Source: Ranitomeya imitator
Lineage: Eukaryota
Length of the DNA: 64,000 nucleotides
Assembly: GCF_032444005.1 (NCBI RefSeq)
Contig: NC_091283.1
Coordinates: 499,038,001-499,102,000, forward strand
Direction of reading: 5' to 3'
Shown: positions 16,091 to 47,562 of the stretch, piece by piece
Layout: each line of letters begins with the position of its first letter
Position numbering within the stretch: position 1 is the first letter of the stretch
Made by a program: the position numbers and the translations under genes
The notes under the pieces: generated by a model
What the model saw: only the letters and a program-made list of their open reading frames with translations
Database searches by the model: none
What the model was told of the DNA's origin: nothing

Positions 16091-16506
16091 CTGAAGGCAA
16101 ACCACTCCAAATATTGATTTGTGTGACACTAGTCACTTCTCATGGCCAAGCCTGTGAGTCAGAATAGTCAAGGAGTCCAAGGTCAGAAGCCAAGAGGTTA
16201 CGTCATAAACAGAAGAAAGAGACAAAAGCTTTGTCAGGCAACATCCTGAGGTCAGAATACCAGGAAGATAATGGATCAGAGCTGATGTTAATCAGATTGA
16301 TGTCAGAACGAAGTCCAAGGTCAGACAACAAAAAATCAAGCAGACAGAACTCAAGGCACAGGGAGCACAAACCTCACTGGCTGAATGCATGTCTGGCAGA
16401 GGTGTTGTGAATTCTGTGGCTGAGTTCACTTCTGTGGTCACAAGTGGTATTGCAGTCTCTGGGCTTCCTCCCTCAGGTGTTTTGGTGAGCTCGTTGGCTG
16501 CCTTGC

Positions 16507-16545
16507 TATTTAGCTCCACCTGAGTCTGTCTTCCTTGCTCCTTGT
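16507..16545 (+). promoter_or_regulatory. LTR TATA-like box (TATTTA, 16507) and predicted transcript start / self-primer GCTCCTTGT (16537-16545)
   Basis: 30-nt spacing. GCTCCTTGT is the exact reverse complement of ACAAGGAGC at 17153-17161, just inside the LTR end. Confidence 0.7.
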
Positions 16546-17281
16546 CAATGTTCCAGTGTTGGATCTGAGCTACTGCATCTTTCCTTGGGCCTGCTGCTCT
16601 GCTAGATAAGTGCTTCTAGTTTGTTTTCTGTTTTTTCTGTCCAGCTTGTTATTATCTTTTGCTGGAAGCTCTGAGAAGCAAAGGGGTGCACCGCCGTGCT
16701 GTTAGTTCGGCACGGTGGGTCTTTTTGCCCCTTTGCGTGGTTTTCGTTTTAGGGTTTTTTGTAGACTGCATAGTTCTCTTTGCTATCCTCGCTCTGTCTA
16801 GAATATCGGGCCTCACTTTGCTGAATCTATTTCATTCCTACGTTTGTCTTTTCATCTTGCTAACAGTCATTATATGTGGGGGCTGCCTATTCCTTTGGGG
16901 TATTTCTCTGAGGTAAGTCAGGCTTGTATTTCTATCTTCAGGCTAGTCAGCTCCTCAGGCAGTGCCGAGTTGCATAGGTAGTTGATAGGCGCAATCCACT
17001 GCTGCTTCCAGTTGTGTGAGGATAGATCAGGTACTGCAGTCTACAGAGATTCCACGTCTCAGAGCTCGTCCTATTGTTTTGGGTTATTTCCAGATCTCTG
17101 TATGTGCGCTGATTACTGCACGCTGTGTTGCCTGATTGCCAGCCATAACAGTACAAGGAGCCATTCAATGATTTCCAATAGAGGGAAAAAAGAAATCCTG
17201 ACATCATTTTTTTTTCTTAGCTCTGTCTTCAGTCTTTTTTTTCCCCTAGACATTAGAGTGCTTCAGGACACAGCTGTGGAC

Positions 17282-20200
17282 ATGGATATTCAGGCTCTGT
17301 GCTCCTCAATGGATAATCTCGTTGTAAATGTACAAAAGATTCAAGATACTATTGATCAGAAATCGATGCTAGAACCAAGAATTCCGATTCCTGATTTGTT
17401 TTTTGGTGACAGAACTAAGTTCCTGAGCTTCAGAAATAATTGTAAGCTATTTTTGGCCTTGAAACCTCATTCTTCTGGTAATCCTATTCAACAGGTTTTG
17501 ATTATTATTTCTTTTTTGCGCGGCGACCCACAGGACTGGGCGTTTTCTCTTGCACCAGGAGATTCTGCATTGAGTAATGTTGATGCATTTTTCCAGGCGC
17601 TGGGATTGCTTTACGATGAGCCTAATTCAGTGGATCAAGCTGAGAAAAATCTGCTGGCTTTATGCCAGGGTCAGGATGATGTAGAAGTATATTGTCAGAA
17701 ATTTAGAAAATGGTCAGTACTCACTCTGTGGAATGAATCTGCACTAGCGGCTTTGTTCAGAAAGGGTCTCTCTGAAGCTCTTAAGGATGTAATGGTGGGA
17801 TTTCCTATGCCTACTGGTTTGAATGAGTCTATGTCCTTGGCCATTCAGATCGGTCGTCGCTTGCGCGAGCGTAAATCTGTGCACCATCTGGCGGTATTGT
17901 CTGAGAGTAAGCCTGAGCCTATGCAGTGCGACAGGACTATGACTAAAGTAGAACGGCACGAACACAGACGTCTGAACAGACTGTGTTTCTATTGTGGTGA
18001 TTCTACTCATGCTATTTCTAATTGTCCTAAACGCACTAGGCGGTTCGATAGCTCTGCCGTTATTGGTACTGTACAGTCCAAATTCCTTTTGTCCATTACC
18101 TTAATGTGCTCTTTGTCATCATATTCTGTCATGGCGTTTGTGGATTCAGGCGCTGCCCTGAATCTGATGGATTTGGATTATGCTAAACGTTGTGGATTTT
18201 TCTTGGAGCCTTTGCGGTGTCCTATTCCGTTGAGAGGAATTGATGCTACACCTCTGGCCAAGAATAAGCCTCAGTACTGGGCCCAGCTGACCATGTGCAT
18301 GGCTCCTGCACATCAGGAAGTTATTCGCTTTTTGGTACTGCATAATTTGCATGATGTGGTCGTGTTGGGGTTGCCATGGCTACAAACCCATAATCCAGTA
18401 TTGGATTGGAACTCTATGTCGGTAACCAGCTGGGGTTGTCAGGGAGTACATGGTGATGTTCCATTTTTGTCTATTTCGTCATCCATTCCTTCTGACATCC
18501 CAGAGTTCTTGTCGGACTTTCAGGATGTATTTGAAGAGTCCAAGTCTGATGCCCTTCCTCCGCATAGGAATTGTGATTGTGCTATCGATTTGATTCCTGG
18601 TAGTAAATTCCCTAAGGGTCGTTTATTTAATTTGTCCGTACCTGAGCACACCGCTATGCGCAGTTATGTGAAGGAGTCCCTGGAGAAGGGACATATTCGC
18701 CCATCGTCGTCACCATTGGGAGCAGGGTTCTTTTTTGTAGCCAAGAAGGATGGTTCGCTAAGACCGTGTATTGATTACCGCCTTCTTAATAAGATCACTG
18801 TTAAGTTTCAGTATCCCTTGCCATTGATTTCTGACTTGTTTGCTCGGATTAAGGGGGCTAGTTGGTTTACTAAGATTGATCTTCGTGGTGCGTATAATCT
18901 GGTGAGAATCAGGCAGGGAGATGAATGGAAAACGGCATTTAATACGCCCGAGGGTCATTTTGAGTATCTGGTGATGCCGTTCGGACTTGCCAATGCTCCA
19001 TCTGTTTTTCAGTCTTTTATGCATGACATTTTCCGTGAGTATCTGGATAAATTCTTGATTGTTTACTTGGATGACATTTTGATCTTCTCAGATGATTGGG
19101 AGTCTCATGTGAAGCAAGTCAGAATGGTTTTCCAGGTACTGCGTGCTAATTCCTTGTTCGTGAAGGGATCAAAGTGTCTCTTCGGTGTGCAGAAAGTTTC
19201 ATTTTTGGGGTTCATCTTTTCCCCTTCTACTATCGAGATGGATCCGGTTAAGGTTCAGGCCATCCAGGATTGGACTCAGCCGACATCTCTAAAAAGTTTG
19301 CAGAAATTCCTGGGCTTTGCTAATTTTTATCGTCGCTTCATCTGTAATTTTTCTAGCATTGCCAGACCATTGACCGATTTGACCAAGAAGGGTGCTGATT
19401 TGGTTAATTGGTCTTCTGCTGCCGTGGAGGCTTTTCAGGAGTTGAAGCGTCGTTTTTGCTGTGCCCCTGTGTTGTGTCAACCTGATGTTTCTCTTCCGTT
19501 CCAGGTCGAGGTTGATGCTTCTGAGATTGGTGCAGGGGCGGTTTTGTCACAGAGAGGTTCTGGTTGCTCAGTGTTCAAACCATGTGCTTTCTTTTCCAGG
19601 AAATTTTCTGCTGCTGAGCGTAATTATGATGTGGGCAACCGAGAGTTGCTGGCCTTGAAGTGGGCATTCGAGGAGTGGCGTCATTGGCTTGAGGGTGCTA
19701 AGCATCGCGTGGTGGTTTTGACTGATCATAAGAACCTTACTTATCTTGAGTCTGCCAAGCGCTTGAATCCTAGACAGGCCCGTTGGTCGTTATTTTTTGC
19801 TCGTTTTGATTTTGTGATTTCATACCTTCCGGGCTCTAAAAATGTGAAGGCGGATGCTCTGTCTAGGAGTTTTGTGCCCGACTCTCCGGGGTTATCTGAG
19901 CCGGCGAGTATCCTCAAGGAAGGAGTCATTGTGTCTGCTATCTCCCCTGATTTGCGGAGAGTGTTGCAGAAATTTCAGGCTAATAAACCTGATCGTTGTC
20001 CGGCCGAGAAACTGTTCGTCCCTGATAGGTGGACTAGTAAAGTTATCTCTGAACTTCATTGTTCGGTGCTGGCCGGTCATCCAGGAATCTTTGGTACCAG
20101 GGAGTTGGTTGCTAGATCCTTCTGGTGGCCATCTCTGTCACGGGATGTGCGTGCTTTTGTGCAGTCCTGTGGAATTTGTGCTAGGGCTAAGCCCTGCTGT

Positions 20201-21463
20201 TCACGTGCCAGTGGGTTGCTTTTGCCCTTGCCGGTCCCGAAGAGGCCTTGGACACATATTTCGATGGATTTCATTTCTGACCTTCCCGTTTCTCAAAAGA
20301 TGTCTGTCATTTGGGTGGTCTGTGATCGCTTTTCTAAAATGGTCCATCTGGTGCCCTTGGTTAAATTGCCTTCCTCCTCTGATTTGGTGCCTTTGTTCTT
20401 CCAGCATGTGGTTCGTTTACATGGCATTCCTGAGAATATTGTTTCTGACAGAGGTTCCCAGTTTGTCTCGAGGTTCTGGCGAGCCTTTTGTGGTAGGATG
20501 GGCATTGACCTATCTTTTTCCTCGGCCTTCCATCCTCAGACTAATGGCCAGACCGAACGAACCAATCAGACCTTGGAAACATATCTGAGATGTTTTGTTT
20601 CCGCTGACCAGGATGATTGGGTGTCATTTTTGCCGTTGGCTGAGTTCGCCCTTAATAATCGGGCCAGCTCGGCTACCTTGGTCTCTCCATTTTTCTGCAA
20701 TTCTGGGTTCCATCCTCGTTTCTCTTCAGGACAGGTTGAGTCTTCGGACTGTCCTGGTGTGGATTATGTGGTGGACAGGTTGCAGCAGATCTGGACTCAG
20801 GTAGTGGACAATTTGACCTTGTCCCAGGAGAAGGCTCAGCTTTTCGCTAATCGCAGACGCCGTGTGGGACCCCGACTTCGTGTTGGGGATCTGGTTTGGT
20901 TATCTTCTCGTCATATACCTATGAAGGTTTCCTCTCCTAAATTTAAACCTCGTTTTATTGGTCCGTATAGGATTTCTGAGATTCTCAATCCGGTGTCTTT
21001 TCGTCTGACCCTCCCAGACTCCTTTTCCATACATAATGTATTCCATAGGTCGTTGTTGAGGAGATACGTGGCACCTATGGTTCCATCTGTGGAGCCTCCT
21101 GCCCCTGTTTTGGTGGAGGGGGAATTGGAGTATATTGTGGAGAAGATTTTGGATTCTCATGTCTCTAGACGGAAACTCCAGTATCTGGTCAAATGGAAGG
21201 GTTATGCTCAGGAAGATAATTCCTGGGTTTTTGCCTCTGATGTCCATGCCCCAGATCTTGTTCGTGCCTTTCATGTGGCTCATCCTGGTCGGCCTGGGGG
21301 TTCTGGTGAGGGTTCGGTGACCCCTCCTCAAGGGGGGGGTACTGTTGTGAATTCTGTGGCTGAGTTCACTTCTGTGGTCACAAGTGGTATTGCAGTCTCT
21401 GGGCTTCCTCCCTCAGGTGTTTTGGTGAGCTCGTTGGCTGCCTTGCTATTTAGCTCCACCTGA
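17282..21463 (+). CDS. Gag-Pol polyprotein (Gag, CCHC knuckle, protease, RT, RNase H, integrase, chromodomain), ~1393 aa
   Basis: Motifs CFYCGDSTHAISNC; AFVDSGA; IVYLDDILI; VDASEIG..DHKNL..DALSR; HHCC then MDF..SDRG..ERTN; chromodomain YIVEKILDS..YLVKWKGY. The frame is open from 16982; the ATG at 17282 (MDIQAL) is the likely start. Confidence 0.95.
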   Translation: MDIQALCSSMDNLVVNVQKIQDTIDQKSMLEPRIPIPDLFFGDRTKFLSFRNNCKLFLALKPHSSGNPIQQVLIIISFLRGDPQDWAFSLAPGDSALSNVDAFFQALGLLYDEPNSVDQAEKNLLALCQGQDDVEVYCQKFRKWSVLTLWNESALAALFRKGLSEALKDVMVGFPMPTGLNESMSLAIQIGRRLRERKSVHHLAVLSESKPEPMQCDRTMTKVERHEHRRLNRLCFYCGDSTHAISNCPKRTRRFDSSAVIGTVQSKFLLSITLMCSLSSYSVMAFVDSGAALNLMDLDYAKRCGFFLEPLRCPIPLRGIDATPLAKNKPQYWAQLTMCMAPAHQEVIRFLVLHNLHDVVVLGLPWLQTHNPVLDWNSMSVTSWGCQGVHGDVPFLSISSSIPSDIPEFLSDFQDVFEESKSDALPPHRNCDCAIDLIPGSKFPKGRLFNLSVPEHTAMRSYVKESLEKGHIRPSSSPLGAGFFFVAKKDGSLRPCIDYRLLNKITVKFQYPLPLISDLFARIKGASWFTKIDLRGAYNLVRIRQGDEWKTAFNTPEGHFEYLVMPFGLANAPSVFQSFMHDIFREYLDKFLIVYLDDILIFSDDWESHVKQVRMVFQVLRANSLFVKGSKCLFGVQKVSFLGFIFSPSTIEMDPVKVQAIQDWTQPTSLKSLQKFLGFANFYRRFICNFSSIARPLTDLTKKGADLVNWSSAAVEAFQELKRRFCCAPVLCQPDVSLPFQVEVDASEIGAGAVLSQRGSGCSVFKPCAFFSRKFSAAERNYDVGNRELLALKWAFEEWRHWLEGAKHRVVVLTDHKNLTYLESAKRLNPRQARWSLFFARFDFVISYLPGSKNVKADALSRSFVPDSPGLSEPASILKEGVIVSAISPDLRRVLQKFQANKPDRCPAEKLFVPDRWTSKVISELHCSVLAGHPGIFGTRELVARSFWWPSLSRDVRAFVQSCGICARAKPCCSRASGLLLPLPVPKRPWTHISMDFISDLPVSQKMSVIWVVCDRFSKMVHLVPLVKLPSSSDLVPLFFQHVVRLHGIPENIVSDRGSQFVSRFWRAFCGRMGIDLSFSSAFHPQTNGQTERTNQTLETYLRCFVSADQDDWVSFLPLAEFALNNRASSATLVSPFFCNSGFHPRFSSGQVESSDCPGVDYVVDRLQQIWTQVVDNLTLSQEKAQLFANRRRRVGPRLRVGDLVWLSSRHIPMKVSSPKFKPRFIGPYRISEILNPVSFRLTLPDSFSIHNVFHRSLLRRYVAPMVPSVEPPAPVLVEGELEYIVEKILDSHVSRRKLQYLVKWKGYAQEDNSWVFASDVHAPDLVRAFHVAHPGRPGGSGEGSVTPPQGGGTVVNSVAEFTSVVTSGIAVSGLPPSGVLVSSLAALLFSST

Positions 21464-23510
21464 GTCTGTCTTCCTTGCTCCTTGTCAATGTTCCAGTGTT
21501 GGATCTGAGCTACTGCATCTTTCCTTGGGCCTGCTGCTCTGCTAGATAAGTGCTTCTAGTTTGTTTTCTGTTTTTTCTGTCCAGCTTGTTATTATCTTTT
21601 GCTGGAAGCTCTGAGAAGCAAAGGGGTGCACCGCCGTGCTGTTAGTTCGGCACGGTGGGTCTTTTTGCCCCTTTGCGTGGTTTTCGTTTTAGGGTTTTTT
21701 GTAGACTGCATAGTTCTCTTTGCTATCCTCGCTCTGTCTAGAATATCGGGCCTCACTTTGCTGAATCTATTTCATTCCTACGTTTGTCTTTTCATCTTGC
21801 TAACAGTCATTATATGTGGGGGCTGCCTATTCCTTTGGGGTATTTCTCTGAGGTAAGTCAGGCTTGTATTTCTATCTTCAGGCTAGTCAGCTCCTCAGGC
21901 AGTGCCGAGTTGCATAGGTAGTTGATAGGCGCAATCCACTGCTGCTTCCAGTTGTGTGAGGATAGATCAGGTACTGCAGTCTACAGAGATTCCACGTCTC
22001 AGAGCTCGTCCTATTGTTTTGGGTTATTTCCAGATCTCTGTATGTGCGCTGATTACTGCACGCTGTGTTGCCTGATTGCCAGCCATAACACAGAGGTCTG
22101 GAAGAAACAGCTCAGTTAAGTAGCATGGCAGTCACCTGGGATAATGAACACTTGGAGATAGCCAACGCCTCCCAGTCTCAGATTGGATAGTCAATCAACA
22201 CAGTTACAACTCAGAAAGCCCCTACACCAAACAGGAAGGCTGAGCTGTCAATCAAAGTACTGACAGCTTCAGCACACCCCTATACAGATTGGATGGCCGA
22301 GTTGTCAGTAACTGCATCCAAGACACACTGAGGGGCGGAACCCAGACAATTTGATTTAGATTTCTCTTCTCTTCATTCAAGATTGCAGCTTTTTTTCCAC
22401 ACCTGCCTAAAACTTTTGCACAAATTTACTTTCCAATTGCTTCCTCCATTCTGTAGCGATTATGATCATATTTCAAGGCTTTCATAGTTTCTAGCAAGTT
22501 AGCTAACAGAAATATGCCTTTTATGGAAAAACCCCAAATGATATCTAATTTAGAAAGCCCTTAGTATAAAATCCAATGATCAGATTCTACGCTTATGGAG
22601 GAGAAAAGTGTTTCTTGATCAGTTGTTTAGACAATCAGTCTACTCACGTTAATGGGCACAATGCAATAATAGATTTCCCCTGTGGAGGCATTGCAGAGGA
22701 ATTGAACACTTACTACAAGGATCTCCTTCACATTACAGCTGATTGTTGATCCAATATCCAATATTATGTTTTTCTTTAATTTAACGTATGAACCACACCT
22801 TTGTGTTCTTAGTTTCCACCCATTGTTTATAGAAAAGTTATACAGAGAGTGAGAGAATACACCTCCATATTATCATTAGATATTTTTTTCATACAGTGGT
22901 CCCTTCTCTTTTCATCTCTGCATTTCAAAACAGCCCAAACATTTTCTAAGACCCTTAACTATTTATTTTATTTTATCATCAATGGCGCTGTGTCAGGGCT
23001 TCTTTTTAGCAGGACAAGCTGTAGTTCTTAATGATTCCATTTTGAAATACTTATAACTATTTGATGGCTTATAATTTCATTTTTAGGGAAGCGAGGTGAA
23101 TATATAATAGCACTTCTGTTTTTTATGTGTTTTTATATTTTAATAATTTTTTTTTTATATTTTTTTTTTTCGAAAAGTCAGTTTAATAATGCAGTTTGTA
23201 AAGGCAAATTTACATTTTTGATTTAGATTTTCTAATTTTTGTTAATCACTTTTTGAACCCTCTTCTTTTATTTTAGTCCCAGTAAGGGACTTACAGAATG
23301 AGTGTGATATAATAGTCTATGATACATAAGTATTACATTGTATTATATACTCTGTTTTTTCAGTGGAATATTGCAGTTTTGAATAACACAATTCACTTCA
23401 CTTTTCAGAACTGTAAAGAAAATGGATATAGATCTTTTTCATCTTTTTCTCGTTTTTATTTTTCCAGATACTGTTTGATGACTGATTCATGCAGCCTTAC
23501 TTGAAAGCCC

Positions 23511-33068: not shown

Positions 33069-33680
33069 ATGAGCATTAAGCAGGGATCTGGATCTAGGAG
33101 CTCAGGGTCGAGCTCAGTAACATCAAGCATTAGAGTATCTTCAGGAAACCAAAGCTCTGGTGGACATTATGGTGGTGGGAAAACTTCAGGGAGCTATGTG
33201 GGAAGCGTCAGGGGTGGAAGCTTAAGTACTGGTTTTGGTGGTGGACACTTTGCTGGATCTGGCTTTAGCAGTGGATCTGGTGTTGGTGCTGGTTGTGGAT
33301 TTGGCGGCTCTGGTTTTAGTAGTAGTTCTGCATATGGAGTAGGTTCAGGATATGGAGTTGGTTCTGGTTTTGGGCAAGGCTCTGGATTTGGTGGTAGTGG
33401 GTTTGCTGGAGGAGTAGGTTTTGGAGGTTATGGTTTAGGCTTTGGAGGTAATCAAGGTGCAGGACATGGAGGAGACCAAGGTCTTCTGTCTATCAATGAG
33501 AAGCTTACTATGCAGAACCTGAATGATCGCTTGGCTACATATCTTGATAAGGTGCGATCTTTGGAGGAGGCCAATGCCGAACTGGAGAGAAAAATACGCC
33601 AATGGTATGAAAGCCAGGGTCCTAAACCAGCTCAAGACTATGGCCACTACTTTAAAACAATTGAAGGTCTACAGAAAAAG
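33069..33680 (+). CDS. Keratin exon 1 (head and coil 1A)
   Basis: ATG ... CAGAAAAAG|GTGAGA, phase 0. Confidence 0.96.
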
Positions 33681-36564
33681 GTGAGACGTATTACAGAAAT
33701 GTGAAAGAATAAGAAAAGTAATGTTCAGCGCTATTTAGGTTATGAGGTGCAGACATGTTTAGGTACTGAGTTAATTTATACAGTTGATATGTTTTACGTT
33801 TTGTAATAAAAATATCAGAAATTTGACAAACATTTTTTAAAATTTGCAATTTTCAAAATTTAAATGATTGTCCCTTTAATCCAGGTAGTCACATCACACA
33901 AAAACATTAATAAGTAACATTTCCTTCATGTCGGCTTTACATCAGCACCATTTTTGAAATGTTGTTTTATTTTATTATAATTTGAGGAGGTTTAACAATG
34001 TAGCTGTAATTTTTATTTTTTCAAGGAAATGTACAAAACTTATTTTTTAAGGGACCTGTTCAGTTTTGAAGTGACTTTGGAGGCTTTATACATTGGAAAC
34101 CTCTAAATGTGATACAATTTTAAAAACTGCACTCTTCAATGTATTCAAAATTGCTTTCAGGTAGTTTATTAACCCTTCAGTTGATTTTCAGTAATTAATG
34201 CAAAGTGGTATAACAGGAATGAAAAAGTTTATTTTTACCACCTACGGTAAATGTCACTAACTTCTGAACAGGCCACTATAGCCGGCAGACGTTAAGACCG
34301 TTATTTGGCCATGAACTGCCATGGCAAACATCAGGACTGCATGATCTAGATCTCAGAATGCCAATGGGGTTGAAGAGGTAACCCCCACACTCTGTTAACT
34401 ATTTAGATGCTGCAGTCGCTATTGACAGCAGCATCTAAGGGGTTAAAAGGCCATGGTCGATGCTAACACTGATCGTGGCTGATGCAGCACGTTGTCAGCT
34501 ATAGTGTACAGCAGACAACTGCTGGATTGTCACCTGTCGGAGGATACTGTTCTCTTATATCGCAGGTCAGTAAAAAGATGTATTGGTGGTCATTAAGGCT
34601 GCTTTCACACATCAGTTTTTTGCCATTAGTCGCAATCCGTCCAATTTTGAAAAAAATGGACCTGTCGCAGATTGTGAAAAACCGATGCGACGGATCCGTT
34701 TTTTCTCCGGATCCAACTAGCGGATCCTGCTAATTGTATCCTAAAAAAATCGGAGCATGATCAGTTTAAAAAAACGGAATCCATCACCAGATTCCGTCAT
34801 TTGACGGATCCGGCACCATAGGCTTCCATTCTAGGAAATGACGGTCGGTGACAGATCCGTTGCTGTCCGTTTTTTCGACGGACACAAAAATCGTTACCAT
34901 GTCCGTTTTCTCCAGCTGCCGAACTGACAATTTTAGATGGATCCGGCGAACAACGGATGAAACGTGAGGCCATCCGTCGCAATCCGTCGCTAATACAAGT
35001 CTACGAAAAAAAAACGGATCCAGCGGCAACTTTTGCCGGATCCGTTGTTTTCAAAATTCATCGGATTGTGACTGACGGCAAAAAAACTGATGTATGAAAG
35101 GGACCTAAGAGGTTAAGTTGTAGATACTTAAGTTGTGGTAATTAATGTAAATTGCTGGAGACTGTTACTTGCTTACATCTCTCATTTTATTTATCCATCT
35201 ATCTACAATCCAAAGCATACAGAAGATATATGCAATTATTGAATATGGGAAATTTAAACTGCGTTACTTCTATATAGAATAAACATAGAACATGAAGGTA
35301 CAAATTTGCTAATTCGTCTAAGCCCATTAGCCATGGCAAGGCGACATTTCTCTGACGGGACCCTAAACCTAATTTTCATCATACATATCTCTCTGGGGCT
35401 AAAAGCCTTAATATTTAAAGGATAGATAGGATCCAGCCTTACTTAAAAAACAGATTTAGGCTGATGGAATTAGGAGTGCTTTGCCAACTATGGAGGCAGT
35501 CACAATCTCAAAATGTATATTACAAAGAAAAACAAACTCACTAGTAACTCCTAACAGAAGAAACCAAGTGTGAACATGCGCAAGCTGCTGTGACTGTACT
35601 ATGCGCGAAACAGAGAGTACAGCAGCACTCTGCAAGCGCTAAGATGTATGCAAACATTGAATATGTGACATTTACATTTGTTTTCTGAGGATATTCTATA
35701 TAGCAGTAATCCAGCTATCTATCTATTATCTATTTATCTCATATCTACACAAGGCCAAGTCGACCTGTCATTGGCTACAGCAGAATAAAGTGAAGGTTCT
35801 GGAGTGGCCATCTCAGTCTCCTGACCTCAATATCATTGAGCCACTCTGGGGAGATATCAAGCACACAGTTCACTCTAGACAGCCCAGGAATTTATAGAAA
35901 CTGGAGGCTTTTTGCCAAGAAGAGTTGGCAGGTTTACCATCTGAGAAAATAAAGAACCTCATCCACAACTACCACAAAATTCTTGAAACTGTCATTGATG
36001 TTAGAGGGGGCAATACACGGTATTAAGAAATGGGGTATGTGAACTTTTGATCAGGGTCATTTGGATGTTTTGGGCTGTCATTATGATTTAAAAAGAGAAA
36101 ACACAGTAGTTTGACAATAAATGGATTCACCCAACCACAAACTGTGAGTGGAGAAAAAGTTTTGGTGTTATCATTCATATTATCTGAAAAAAGTCCAAAA
36201 AAGCAAAAATTCTGCCAGGGTATGTAAACTTTTGAGCACAACTGTATGTTTTCTCTTCCTCCATCATGAAGCTGAAATCTGGGAAGAGATTGGAGAGTCT
36301 TCTGAAGTGGACTTATACTGCAGCCCTATCTCTTATCCATCTATATTTATTATTATGTATTATGCTTTGCTTATATAGCGACCTTCATATTCCACAATGA
36401 TTTACATACATTATTATTGCTGTCCCCAATGGAGCTCACAATCTAAACTCCTTATCAATATGTCTTGGAGTGTTGGAGGAAACCAGAGAATCTGGAGGAA
36501 ACCCACACAAACATCGGGAGAACATCCATCTATGTTTGCATATCTCATATTTATCTATCTCATG

Positions 36565-36595
<31 letters not shown>

Positions 36596-39500
36596 ACATA
36601 TTTCATATGTATCTTTTCATCTATCTCCTATAATTTCTGTACTTCACATCTCTCAGTTCCCTTTGGATCATATTAATCAAGCTAACATTTAGATGAGCGA
36701 GAGAGGGCAGTATCTTACTTCTTTTGCAGGATCATCTAAAAAAATATTTGATCCTTCTACTCATAACATAGACAATCCTTTTCTTGTAGGGGATCAAAGT
36801 TTAGACTTGCCACAGATTAATAACATATCTGGCAAAGACATGCAAATTAACCACTAATGTGCCAAAACAATGTTCCTAACCATCACTGACATCTTTAAGT
36901 TGCTGTGTATATACAAGAATCATGGAACTTGGGTTTCCAGGTTAAATGCTGAGTACCAGTTCCACTGTCTGTATTTTCTTTATGAAATAAAGCTAAGTCT
37001 TCATTTTTGAACTTTTGTTTGCAAATTTAGATCCAAGAAGCCACTGTCAACAATGGCCATGTGGTCCTTCAAATTGACAATGCCCGACTGGCAGCTGATG
37101 ACTTCAAACTCAAGTAAGATGGTTATGATGTAAATTTATTGTTATTTGATGCCCAAAAGTCTGCAAACAATGATAATTGATATCTTGACAGGTATGATAA
37201 TGAGCTGTTCATGCGTCAATCAGTGGAAGCTGACATCAATGGTCTGAGGAGAGTCCTGGATGACTTGACTTTTTCAAGAAGTGACCTCGAGTCACAACTT
37301 GAGAGTCTGAAAGAAGAACTTGTGGCTCTGAAGAAGAACCATGAGGAGGTAGCACAATGTCTTACTGAATTTACCTACTTGTTGAGCAGTATAATGTAAC
37401 AAGAAGTTATAGTAGATGACTATCACTAGGAGGTGCTGTGTATTCATATAATCTAACAAAGACTTTGATTATCTAATTGCTCAGGAAATGAAGGCTAGAA
37501 GTGGACAGGTCCAGGGTACCGTTAATGTGGATATGAATGCAGCTCCAGGAATTGACTTGCAGAAAGTGCTTGGTGACCTGAGACATGACTATGAGTCACT
37601 CATGGCCAAGAACCAGAAAGATATTGAGGCTTGGTATCGTAATAAGGTGAGTTGTGACAGTTATAGAATATGTGAAAAATATAATAATAATAATTTTTAT
37701 ATAGCGCTAACAAATTCCGCAGCGCTTTACACACATTATCATTGCTGTCCCCATTGGGGCTCACAATCTAAATTCCCTATCAGTATGTCTTTGGAATGTG
37801 GGAGGAAACCGGAGAACCCGGAGGAAACCCACACAAACACGGGGAGAACATACAAACTCTTTGCAGATGTTGTCCTTAGTGGGGCTTGAACCCAGGACTC
37901 CAGCACTGCAAGGCTGCTGTGCTAACCACTGCGCCACCGTGCTGCCCCACGGTATATAAAGATTACATGTTTAATTAATGTACTGAAATAATACATTTAT
38001 CCTTTAGACTGATGAGCTGAGCAAGCAAATGACTAATGACTCCAATGAAATCCAAACAACCAAGTCTGAAGTTACAGAGTTAAGGCGTACCCTCCAGAGT
38101 CTTGAAATCGAACTTCAGTCCCAGATCAGTATGGTAAGTGAATCTTCTAAAAGCTATTCTTCTTTCTATGTAATGACTGTTTATCATACATTTAGACTTG
38201 AGCTCCTCAAACACTTCTTATTAGAACTCCACCTGACAGAACATCATGATGACCGTGCCTCACCAATGCTCAAACATATCGACTCAACTACATTGCAATG
38301 GCTTTCTTTTAGAAATATAACTGGTATTAGTTATTATCAGGCTTTTCTAAAACTTAAAAATGTATTTATTTCAGAAATCTGCTTTGGAAAGCAGCCTAGC
38401 GGAGACAGAGGGACGTTACTGTATGCAACTGGCAAAACTCCAGCAACACATCCAAAGCGTGGAAGCAGAATTAGCAGAACTGCGCTGTGATATTGAAGGC
38501 CAAAGTCAGGAGTACCAGAATCTTCTGGATATCAAGTCTCGTCTGGAGCAAGAGATCAACACCTATCGTAGTCTTCTGGATGGCCAGGGAAGCGAGTAAG
38601 TGAAATTAACCATGCATCTAAGGATCTGGACTAAAGTCCACATATTAATGAAAGAGTAGAGTTATGCTTCTATGTAGTTGGGATGTGAGCTATTGGAGTT
38701 AGGTTACAGCTTGCTAAGAAAAACTTGGTACTAGTACTAACTTTATTCCATTTGACCATTCCATTATGACATAAATTGCCTCCTTTAGATTATACAAAAC
38801 CTAACCGGAAATAACCCAAACAATTAGAAATAATATAGTTGTATAGGTTTAGAAAATCTTGGCTACTTTCCAAAAATAGTACCACATCTGTTGTCAAGGT
38901 TGGAGGTGATGTTACACCTCAGGCCCATTTACTTCAATACTAGGAACAACCCATGGATAGGAAGAAGAAAAAGACATATTTTACTAATTCTAGTCAGCCA
39001 ATTTAAATTCTTTTTCAACATAATTCACTGGATAAATATATTGTGGTGGAGGGTTTTGTCATGTAATGGAGGCTTTTACCCGCTGATGTAAATAACAAAC
39101 TTATTTATTTTCTTACAGATATCCTAAAGGCTCCTCCTCTTCCACCTCCACCTCTAATTATTCATCATCAGGTTCCCAATCCGGACAAGGTATGATTTCT
39201 CTACCAAGGAGATTCATGGGATGGGAAAATCTTTAAGACTCAAATCCTAAAGAGATTGTGGTACTGTATATCTGCAAAACCCAGACAAAGAAAACGTTAT
39301 ATGGAACCTAACCCAGATCATTATTGGACCCTATGGTAACTGAAATTCAGTTGAATAAATCATAGGGAATGTCCAAATCTGGTGGCTGTTTCTTCCATTT
39401 TAAATATACCATTTGTGGTGCTACTCTAGGTTGGAAAACCTTCTGGTTATCAACCTAAATTTAATGGACTCAACCAAGGGGCTCTGCTAGGGAGAAATTT

Positions 39501-45795: not shown

Positions 45796-45835
45796 TATAA
45801 AAGGTTCTCATGACCGCACGGCCATGCGCTAGTAT
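45796..45835 (+). promoter_or_regulatory. LTR TATA box (TATAAAA, 45796) and predicted self-primer GCGCTAGTAT (45826-45835)
   Basis: 30-nt spacing. Exact complement of ATACTAGCGC at 46274-46283. Confidence 0.75.
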
Positions 45836-46333
45836 CAAATATGTACGAGCTCAGCGTCAGTGTGGTCGTGTGTGTGGTCAGGGACCCGGCTGAAATAAGC
45901 TCCTAGAATGCTGGCAACTCCGGCGAGGAGTTTTGTGTATGCAGTCAGGGAACCGGCTGAAATAAGCCCATAGAATGCTGGCACCTCCGGCGAGGAGTTT
46001 ATGTCTGAATTCAGGGCTGGCTAATAGCCATTAGAATTCCGGCTCCACCGGAGAGGAGCTGCGTGTTGGTTGGACTGCATGACCACTGTTGGCTCTACAC
46101 AGTAGCTGTGTCCCCTGTGAGCTAAACAGGGCACAGCGTTCTCTTTACTATGGGCTCTGTGAAGTAACAGAGTTCGTTTGTACTAATTTGCTTCGCAGCA
46201 GGTTCTTTCCTGCATGGTGGATCCCGGGTTGTATTGGGTAATATATTGGGTGCATTCCGCCAACCCTAACAGTATACTAGCGCCAGGATCTGGCTAAGTA
46301 ATGTCGGATGAACAGCGATTGCAGGTGTACATC

Positions 46334-47562
46334 TGCAGCGCCCCAGAGTCCTTGTCGTTGCAGTAATGTCGTTCTTCCACCAGGGGGAGTGATGTTACGT
46401 CTGATGGCACCAAAGGAGTTCACCTTACCAGGTATCACAAAATACACAACACACTTCACACTCCAGTCCACCAAGGGGAGCTAAGGGTTCTATCTATTAG
46501 GCCACTCCTCACATTAGGGTAAAACTGGTGGGTTGGGGAGGAAGTTAGGGAGTTCCCGGCTGGAGACCGACGAGGAAAGGTCTCCAGGTCGAGCTGGCTG
46601 GAGTGATCTCCAGTCAGATCCAGACTGCGGTCTGAGGAGGACAGAAAGTACACGGAGCTGCGCCTGCAACCCATGCGACAGCATCCTAAGAAAGGAAACG
46701 AAAGGAATTGTGTTGTAGGGAGTGAGCCACGAAGTCACAGCAAAAAGAGAACAAAAACCAGAAGGAGTCCTGTCCTGAGAGAGGCTGCCTCCTTCTGGAG
46801 CGCGGGCCGGTGGCCGGAACACTGAGGGAGTAATAGACTCTACGCTTTACTTCAGAGACCGTAAGGGCAGTCAATTCCAAGTTGGCTGTCCGACCTAAAC
46901 ACCTAAGCAGACACGGTGGCAATTGTGGAGGAGGGGCATCACTAGGGTCCCTATAAAATAGCCTCAGGCCATCACCGTAATACGGGTTTGTCCTATCCAT
47001 CTGGGGGACAGAGAGAGAGAAAGATATAACATCCACAAAAGTTGTGAGGACCTTACCGAGTTGCTCAGCAGGTGGGTACTACAATGCACGAGCGCTAGAA
47101 AGAAGGCTACTGATTTCCACCTGGATAAGGGGACTCTGGAATTGCCAACAGACTGGCCGGACCCTGCCTACCCTGTCATCTGGCACTCTGGACTGTGGAT
47201 GCTGAAGCCTTCAGTAAAGGTAAAGAGACTGCACCCATTGTGTCCTCATTATTCGCCACGCCTTACATCCTCCACCATCACCATCTACACTTCTGGGAAG
47301 CCCTGGAGAAATACTTCACCTGTGGGAAGGTACACCATCTAGCTGCCATAACATCACCCCAGTGGACCCCTGAGCAGCGTTGGTCACTCTGACTGAATAC
47401 CACAGGTGGCGTCACGAACATCACCATTATCTACGAACTCTGCCTTTTTTTGGGCGCCCCTCATAGGGCCAAGGTCCGGGTCGGGCCACCGTGACATCCT
47501 CGCTGAGGGAACTGAAGGACCCGGTACCGAGTACCCCATTGCCCTTACGTGGGGGCGATCCA
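46334..47562 (+). mobile_element. Solo LTR (1229 bp), TGCAGCGCCCC...GGGGGCGATCCA
   Basis: 4-bp TSD CATC (46330-46333, 47563-47566). Homologous to 61876-63141. Excision restores the host gag frame. Confidence 0.9.

What the first reader, a model, noticed from the sequence alone, without database searches (positions are those of the whole stretch)
16507..17161. Self-priming (tRNA-independent) geometry in the intact chromovirus
Seen: there is no TGG-type tRNA PBS after the 5' LTR. Instead, CA|GT-ACAAGGAGC (17153-17161) is the perfect complement of GCTCCTTGT (16537-16545), which lies exactly 30 nt after a TATA-like TATTTA (16507). Established: fission-yeast Tf1 primes minus-strand DNA with its own cleaved 5' end, and this has been proposed for the vertebrate sushi group. 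Inference: the transcript starts at about 16537 and loops over ~600 nt to prime itself.
Basis: partly seen in the sequence, partly recalled or inferred. Interest (0 to 1): 0.7.

Follow-up and report, generated by a model that had tools for sequence, protein, structure and literature searches.

The report
Self-priming chromovirus lineage in poison frog
A young jumping gene in a frog-like genome has no tRNA docking site; the nine bases after its left repeat pair with a stretch 30 bases behind its TATA-like box, related families keep this pairing with different letters, and so it likely starts copying itself with the tip of its own RNA, a trick known from yeast Tf1 and already proposed for vertebrate relatives.

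Summary
Observation confirmed. 16403-22090 is an intact Ty3/gypsy chromovirus: identical 748-bp LTRs and one gag-pol-chromodomain frame. No TGG follows the 5' LTR; 17153-17161 is the exact complement of 16537-16545, 30 nt after TATTTA. The co-variation test passes. In four sister families 6 of 9 paired columns change and all 36 pairs stay Watson-Crick. Of 36 elements whose ends were fixed by target duplications, 30 carry an exact complement of 9 nt or more at about TATA+30, and 6 carry it with 1-2 mismatches. No cross-family swap was perfect (0 of 132). Self-priming is therefore likely, but the transcript start, cleavage and priming were not observed; no usable RNA data were found. The mechanism is known (Tf1) and already proposed for vertebrate Tf1/sushi elements, and this scan noted similar signatures in other genomes. 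Specific to this sub-lineage: a 9-nt primer, 6-bp target duplications (other families here make 5), and no detectable leader helix of the Tf1 'pretzel'. Verdict: variant of a known kind, moderate interest.

The parts
16397..16402 (+). left target-site duplication CAGAGG (6 bp)
16403..17150 (+). 5' LTR, 748 bp, TGTT...AACA, 100% identical to the 3' LTR, A-poor (15% A)
16507..16512 (+). TATA-like box TATTTA, aligned and identical in four sister families
16537..16545 (+). predicted first 9 nt of the transcript, the likely self-primer (T|G start)
   Evidence: the start itself is inferred
17122..17152 (+). predicted U5-end hairpin closing on the base just before the primer site (U5-IR-like)
   Evidence: pair probabilities 0.9-1.0 in a constrained fold; prediction only
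17151..17152 (+). 2-nt spacer GT between LTR end and primer site
17153..17161 (+). primer-binding site ACAAGGAGC, exact complement of 16537-16545
17282..21463 (+). single open frame, 1393 aa: Gag with CCHC knuckle, protease (DSGA), RT (YLDD), RNase H, integrase, SH3, chromodomain; stop lies inside the 3' LTR
21330..21339 (+). polypurine tract AAGGGGGGGG, followed by TAC and the 3' LTR
21343..22090 (+). 3' LTR (holds the second copy of the primer sequence at 21477-21485)
22091..22096 (+). right target-site duplication CAGAGG
45796..45835 (+). second, decayed chromovirus (B): TATAAA at 45796 and GCGCTAGTAT at 45826, again exactly 30 nt apart
46274..46283 (+). element B primer site ATACTAGCGC after CA|GT, complement of 45826-45835

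Best explanation
This is an intact, recently amplified vertebrate chromovirus whose primer-binding site pairs with a 9-nt stretch of its own LTR, and it likely primes minus-strand DNA synthesis with the first nine bases of its own RNA. Inferred steps, by analogy with Tf1: Pol II starts about 30 nt after TATTTA, at G16537; bases 1-9 pair with 17153-17161 next to a U5-end hairpin; the element's RT/RNase H cuts after base 9 (T16545); the freed 3'-OH is extended through the GT spacer into U5 and R; the strong-stop DNA jumps to the 3' R. Also inferred: plus-strand synthesis would copy the primer into the new binding site, so a change in the primer is passed on to the site. That would let the two 9-mers drift together, which no tRNA-primed element can do.
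For: Shown in sequence. (1) No TGG; exact complement 2 nt after the LTR. (2) Four sister families, 56-74% identical over LTR plus leader, align at TATTTA, primer and CAAT; 6 of 9 paired columns vary and 36 of 36 cells stay Watson-Crick. (3) 36 elements with ends fixed by exact TSDs: 30 have an exact run of 9-11 nt at about TATA+30, and the other 6 have their best site in the same register with 1-2 mismatches. (4) 12-family swap matrix: own pairs average 0.98, swapped pairs 0.52, 0 of 132 swaps perfect, 0 of 200,000 permutations reach the observed sum. (5) TATA-like hexamer at -29 to -31 in 13 of 13 families, background 0.4-2.6% each; -1/+1 is pyrimidine/G in 12 of 13. (6) A prediction made beforehand held: for the old LTR family that element A interrupts, the site predicted from its TATA+31 bases appears 2 nt after the LTR end in 3 of 30 loci; the other 27 show unrelated flanks, as solo or 3' LTRs would. 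(7) RT tree places it among vertebrate chromoviruses, with fungal ones outside; the frame is intact with RNase H. Literature: self-priming is stated as the common feature of the Tf1/sushi group (bioRxiv 2022.12.06.519325, PMC6317226, PMC4600332; passages read). About half of Tf1 cDNA keeps a single-stranded copy of the PBS (PMC11042837, passage).
Against: No transcript start, cleavage product or cDNA end was observed. Nine base pairs is shorter than the 11 recalled for Tf1 and than the 10 or more used as a cut-off in PMC6317226. The leader helix that Tf1 needs is not above shuffles in A, A2 (two copies) or A3 (55-88% of 60 shuffles do as well). The high predicted pairing probability in A (0.98) is not special: 8 of 44 shuffles reach about 0.98 and the median is about 0.9. 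The families share ancestry and the TATA pattern was chosen after seeing the data, so the p-values overstate independence. No poly(A) hexamer was found in the four LTRs of this clade, so the R/U5 border is unknown. Priming in cis and in trans cannot be told apart.
Confidence: 0.9

Rival explanations
1. The paired stretch is the primer, but transcription starts further upstream and the primer is cut out of the RNA at both ends, or comes from a second RNA molecule.
For: The start was not mapped. Tf2 uses alternative starts (PMC5341516, passages). Sequence cannot tell cis from trans.
Against: The pairing begins about 30 nt after a TATA-like box in 13 of 13 families, at a pyrimidine/G step in 12 of 13. 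That spacing is the usual vertebrate TATA-to-start distance (recalled).
Confidence: 0.05
2. The pairing is a conserved RNA structure for packaging, dimerisation or translation, and another primer is used.
For: Co-variation proves pairing, not priming. The clade lacks the Tf1 leader helix.
Against: The partner starts 1-4 nt (mostly 2) after the LTR-terminal CA, the position where minus-strand DNA must start. No other primer fits sites that differ in every family.
Confidence: 0.03
3. A host tRNA fragment primes, for example a 5' half of tRNA-Thr(UGU): the complement of the site ends CT-TGT like an anticodon loop.
For: Half-tRNA priming exists in some copia lineages (PMC6317226, passage). The full tRNA set of this genome was not obtained: one search returned 63 places, and the 30 fetched held only tRNA-Lys(ttt).
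Against: An anticodon stem-loop built on the site's complement has 0 matches in the genome. Sister families have other letters at these places, matched by their own LTRs. No Rfam match over 16403-17300 at E up to 1.
Confidence: 0.015
4. Chance complementarity.
For: One 9-mer in one LTR has about a 1% chance.
Against: The register and the compensatory changes recur across 13 families and in a prediction made beforehand.
Confidence: 0.005

Closest known systems
Tf1/Tf2 (Schizosaccharomyces pombe) and Tj1 (S. japonicus)
   Same: Ty3/gypsy chromovirus; no tRNA site; PBS complementary to the predicted 5' end of the RNA; single gag-pol frame as in Tf1/Tf2; predicted hairpin just before the PBS.
   Different: 9-nt pairing (11 in Tf1, recalled); 616-nt loop; CCHC knuckle present (absent in the fission-yeast elements per bioRxiv 2022.12.06.519325); 6-bp TSD (Tj1 has 5 bp, PMC4600332); no detectable leader helix; priming shown by experiment only for Tf1.
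[quoted passage not shown]
   Same: Vertebrate chromovirus lineage, abundant in frogs (PMC4131045, PMC2774666, passages). Self-priming was proposed for the group by Butler et al. 2001 (cited in the papers read; the paper itself is not held). RT-RNase H is 60-65% identical to fish and Xenopus elements.
   Different: No named V-clade sequence was in my tree. This clade has one frame, while non-yeast Tf1/sushi elements mostly use a -1 frameshift (bioRxiv 2022.12.06.519325). It makes 6-bp TSDs and has no AATAAA, whereas the fish Sushi LTR model has one near the 3' end (PMC3601003, passage).
Plant Tcn1-clade chromoviruses and TAR copia elements
   Same: Self-priming predicted from the same kind of LTR-PBS complementarity (PMC6317226).
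   Different: Different hosts and clades. Plant LTR elements almost never have 6-bp TSDs (0.4% in that survey).

Membership tests
Ty3/gypsy chromovirus | LTRs and gag-PR-RT-RH-IN order | tested here: met
   (best PDB match Ty3 Gag-Pol, E 6e-140)
Ty3/gypsy chromovirus | chromodomain at the integrase C-terminus | tested here: met
   PF00385 at aa 1284-1331, E 2e-12
Tf1/sushi group (fungi/vertebrate chromoviruses) | RT-based placement with vertebrate and fungal chromoviruses, apart from plant ones | tested here: inconclusive
   quick tree of 45 rows (14 families from this genome, 31 of the 120 listed proteins): nested among vertebrate elements, fungal rows outside, plant rows further out. No Tf1, sushi-ichi or Amn-san sequence was available and the careful search did not finish.
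Tf1/sushi group (fungi/vertebrate chromoviruses) | no tRNA-type PBS; PBS complementary to a 5' LTR stretch | tested here: met
Tf1/sushi group (fungi/vertebrate chromoviruses) | the complementary stretch is the real 5' end of the RNA | not testable with these tools
   only assembled contigs of uncertain type were available; TATA-like spacing supports it
Tf1-type 'pretzel' priming structure | helix involving the bases just before the PBS | tested here: met
   predicted hairpin 17122-17152, pair probabilities 0.9-1.0; prediction only, co-variation not tested
Tf1-type 'pretzel' priming structure | helix between the leader after the PBS and the LTR | tested here: not met
   not above shuffles in A, A2, A3 (fractions 0.55-0.88); A4 not tested. 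Above shuffles in B1, C, F, G1 (0.00-0.03), borderline in D and E1 (0.07-0.08).
Tf1-type self-priming | RNase H cleavage frees the primer, which is extended by RT | not testable with these tools
   RNase H domain present in an open frame; activity not shown

The most novel reading that the evidence does not exclude
A dendrobatid sub-lineage of vertebrate chromoviruses has simplified self-priming to a 9-bp end-to-site duplex beside one hairpin, without the pseudoknotted pretzel that Tf1 requires, and has also shifted its integrase stagger from 5 to 6 bp. Primer and site would drift together because each replication round copies one into the other.
Probability: 0.4. Interest if true: 0.55.

Novelty: new variant of a known kind. 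Interest (0 to 1): 0.4.

Why it matters
Self-priming has been shown by experiment only in fission yeast; for vertebrate elements the papers read state it as a proposal. This genome holds at least 13 families in which primer and site co-vary at a fixed distance from the promoter, which is strong comparative support and gives exact, checkable predictions for transcript starts and cDNA ends. A tRNA-free primer would also put these very abundant elements out of reach of silencing by tRNA fragments (inference). The 6-bp versus 5-bp duplication within one genome offers a natural comparison for what sets integrase stagger. The principle itself is not new.

Tried and rejected
Transcript start: no RNA holder listed. 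Eight runs laid were all contigs covering U3 as well. One contig begins at 16531, but three runs of the same study do not repeat this, so it was not used. No splice joint was seen. Whole-leader folding as evidence: rejected, since shuffles do as well. In the 5-bp families and in A3 the nested model gives primer pairing near 0; for the 5-bp families this is expected if the leader helix makes it a pseudoknot, while A3 (0.04) is unexplained. AC/GT end symmetry as support: holds in this clade but not in family B, so dropped. tRNA catalogue: incomplete. Viral contigs: no relatives. Targeting of other LTR promoters: 0 of 29 flanks hit the LTR set. Rows dropped: of 82 stretches, 22 gave no full element and 24 more lacked an exact TSD with CA ends, leaving 36; these include window element B, whose ends the script mis-called and which was read by hand, and L223, a non-A element with an apparent 6-bp match at mis-called ends. 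Of 24 stretches, 13 gave no LTR pair or no called ends and 2 had mis-called 5' ends. Searches looked for the A4 junction at the wrong place; one search corrected this. Five primary papers were not held (Butler 2001; Levin 1995; Lin and Levin 1997 RNA and 1998; Atwood-Moore 2006); they are cited only through other papers. Supplements (REXdb tables, Figure 4D and S10 of the S. osmophilus preprint) were not seen and may list primer lengths or TSDs that bear on novelty.

Full report
Element. The window lies on contig C2 of a 5.96-Gb genome. The RT-RNase H region is 99-100% identical to proteins named from Ranitomeya imitator and 72% to one from Dendrobates tinctorius, so the host is probably a dendrobatid poison frog. 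Element A spans 16403-22090, with two identical 748-bp LTRs and one 1393-aa frame carrying Gag, protease, RT, RNase H, integrase, SH3 and chromodomain. It is young: all 40 scored copies, of 816 candidates, match the 898-bp query at about 100%, and 5 of 8 further full-length copies keep the full frame.

Observation. The complement is exactly 9 nt, begins 2 nt after the terminal CA, and lies 616 nt from its partner. For one element this has about a 1% chance, so relatives were needed.

Co-variation in the nearest families. Three sister families (A2, A3, A4; RT 91-94% identical to A) align with A at TATTTA, at the 9-mer 30 nt later and at the following CAAT. Their 9-mers are GCTCCTTGT, GCCTCCAGT, GCCGGTTAT and GCCACTTGT. 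Six of nine columns vary and all 36 cells pair with their own site. Within families at the fixed register: A2, 24 of 30 perfect, 5 with one mismatch, 1 not scorable. A3, 23 of 30 perfect, 4 with 1-2 mismatches, 3 not scorable. A4, 14 of 30 perfect, 4 with 1-2 mismatches, 3 shifted by a one-base insertion after the TATA box, 9 not scorable. The mismatches seen there are one-sided, as expected for decay after insertion.

Co-variation across the genome. From 82 stretches, 36 elements had ends fixed by an exact target duplication, independently of the primer site. Thirty have an exact complement of 9-11 nt starting about 30 nt after a TATA-like box. The other six have their best site in the same register with 1-2 mismatches. 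In a 12-family swap test own pairs averaged 0.98 and swapped pairs 0.52, with no perfect swap in 132; the A2 representative was a decayed copy scoring 0.8 and was kept. A TATA-like hexamer sits at -29 to -31 in 13 of 13 families (pattern chosen after seeing the data). The second chromovirus in the window shows the same layout with other letters (45796, 45826, 46274). For the old LTR that A interrupts I predicted the site from its TATA+31 bases before searching; 3 of 30 loci show that site, with decay, 2 nt after the LTR end, and 27 show unrelated flanks.

Mechanism. Shown: position, complementarity, co-variation, promoter spacing, intact enzymes. Inferred from Tf1: start at G16537, duplex formation, cleavage after base 9 by RT/RNase H, extension through GT into U5. 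In Tf1 about half of the cDNA keeps a single-stranded copy of the primer site (PMC11042837, passage). If the same holds here, a primer change is written into the next generation's site, which explains free joint drift. One family shows a possible intermediate: L084 has a G-U pair and L070 an A-U pair where five other copies have G-C at that position; this is a single case.

What differs from Tf1. The S. osmophilus preprint (10.1101/2022.12.06.519325, passages) describes three helices needed by Tf1. In A a hairpin is predicted to close right before the site. The leader helix is no better than shuffles in A, A2 and A3, yet clear in B1, C, F and G1 and borderline in D and E1. The A clade also makes 6-bp duplications: 13 of 13 A-clade elements against 5 bp in 23 of 23 others. 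One search adds 7 exact and 2 one-mismatch cases among 11 rows with called ends, and adds 2. Positions 1 and 6 of the duplication are G or C in 25 and 27 of 30 copies, symmetric about a 6-bp centre. Three paper searches found no description of 6-bp vertebrate chromoviruses, but the library lacks Repbase and most subscription journals.

Against. No RNA evidence either way. Folding probability is not independent support. No poly(A) hexamer in the four A-clade LTRs. The tRNA set was not complete, though a targeted half-tRNA pattern found nothing.

Known context. Self-priming is given as the common feature of the Tf1/sushi group, including vertebrate members (10.1101/2022.12.06.519325, PMC6317226, PMC4600332; passages only). 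Amn-san chromoviruses are the most abundant LTR elements in the frogs studied in PMC4131045 (passages; the words PBS and priming do not occur in it). PMC2774666, PMC3601003 and PMC5341516 were also read as passages. Butler 2001 and the Levin papers were not held. The quick RT tree nests the A clade (SH-aLRT 94) among frog and fish chromoviruses, without named reference elements. Earlier notes of this scan report like signatures in ray, shark, moss and other genomes; I did not check them.

Verdict. The mechanism is known and already proposed for this group. The new parts are the multi-family co-variation and a sub-lineage with a 9-nt primer, no detectable leader helix and a 6-bp duplication. 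Novelty: new variant of a known kind. Interest 0.4.

Noticed in passing
window 16397-16402 and 22091-22096; L191-L198, L211-L220, L293-L306: The A clade makes 6-bp target duplications with G/C at both ends, while other chromovirus families of this genome make 5 bp.
   Followed up: yes
window about 16122-16402 and 22091-22208, minus strand: Element A sits antisense inside an old LTR of another family with the same self-priming layout; the duplicated site covers that LTR's predicted start. None of 29 other A flanks hit the LTR set, so this is probably chance.
   Followed up: yes
window 16910-16918 and 17205-17249: Splice-donor-like GAG|GTAAGT in the LTR (GAG|GCAAG in the three sisters) and a pyrimidine tract ending in AG before the gag start. 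An intron here would remove the primer site and give a translation-only RNA. No joint was seen in contigs.
   Followed up: partly
window 16403-17150 and sister LTRs: None of 12 poly(A) hexamer variants occurs in the four A-clade LTRs; AATAAA or ATTAAA near the LTR end was found in only 4 of 9 other families. How the RNA ends is unclear.
   Followed up: partly
window 16546-16550: CAATG directly after the primer is kept in the four sister families (most copies) while the primer changes; it may mark the cut site or open a short upstream frame.
   Followed up: no
L203, L204, L209, L230: One family has LTRs that begin TA rather than TG, with clean 5-bp duplications.
   Followed up: no
L112, L121, L127: One family has 4 nt rather than 2 between the LTR end and its 10-nt primer match.
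   Followed up: no
L097 and neighbouring hits on G000 C7 near 143.72 Mb: Tandem array of chromovirus copies at about 5.1-kb spacing, like the tandem elements described for Tf1/Tf2.
   Followed up: no
window about 46341-47552: Element B is decayed and its gag start appears to be interrupted by an insertion of about 1.2 kb (read by eye).
   Followed up: no
window 33069-33704 and 38029-38490: Glycine/serine-rich frame and a coil-like frame that look like exons of a type I keratin gene (recalled resemblance, not tested).
   Followed up: no
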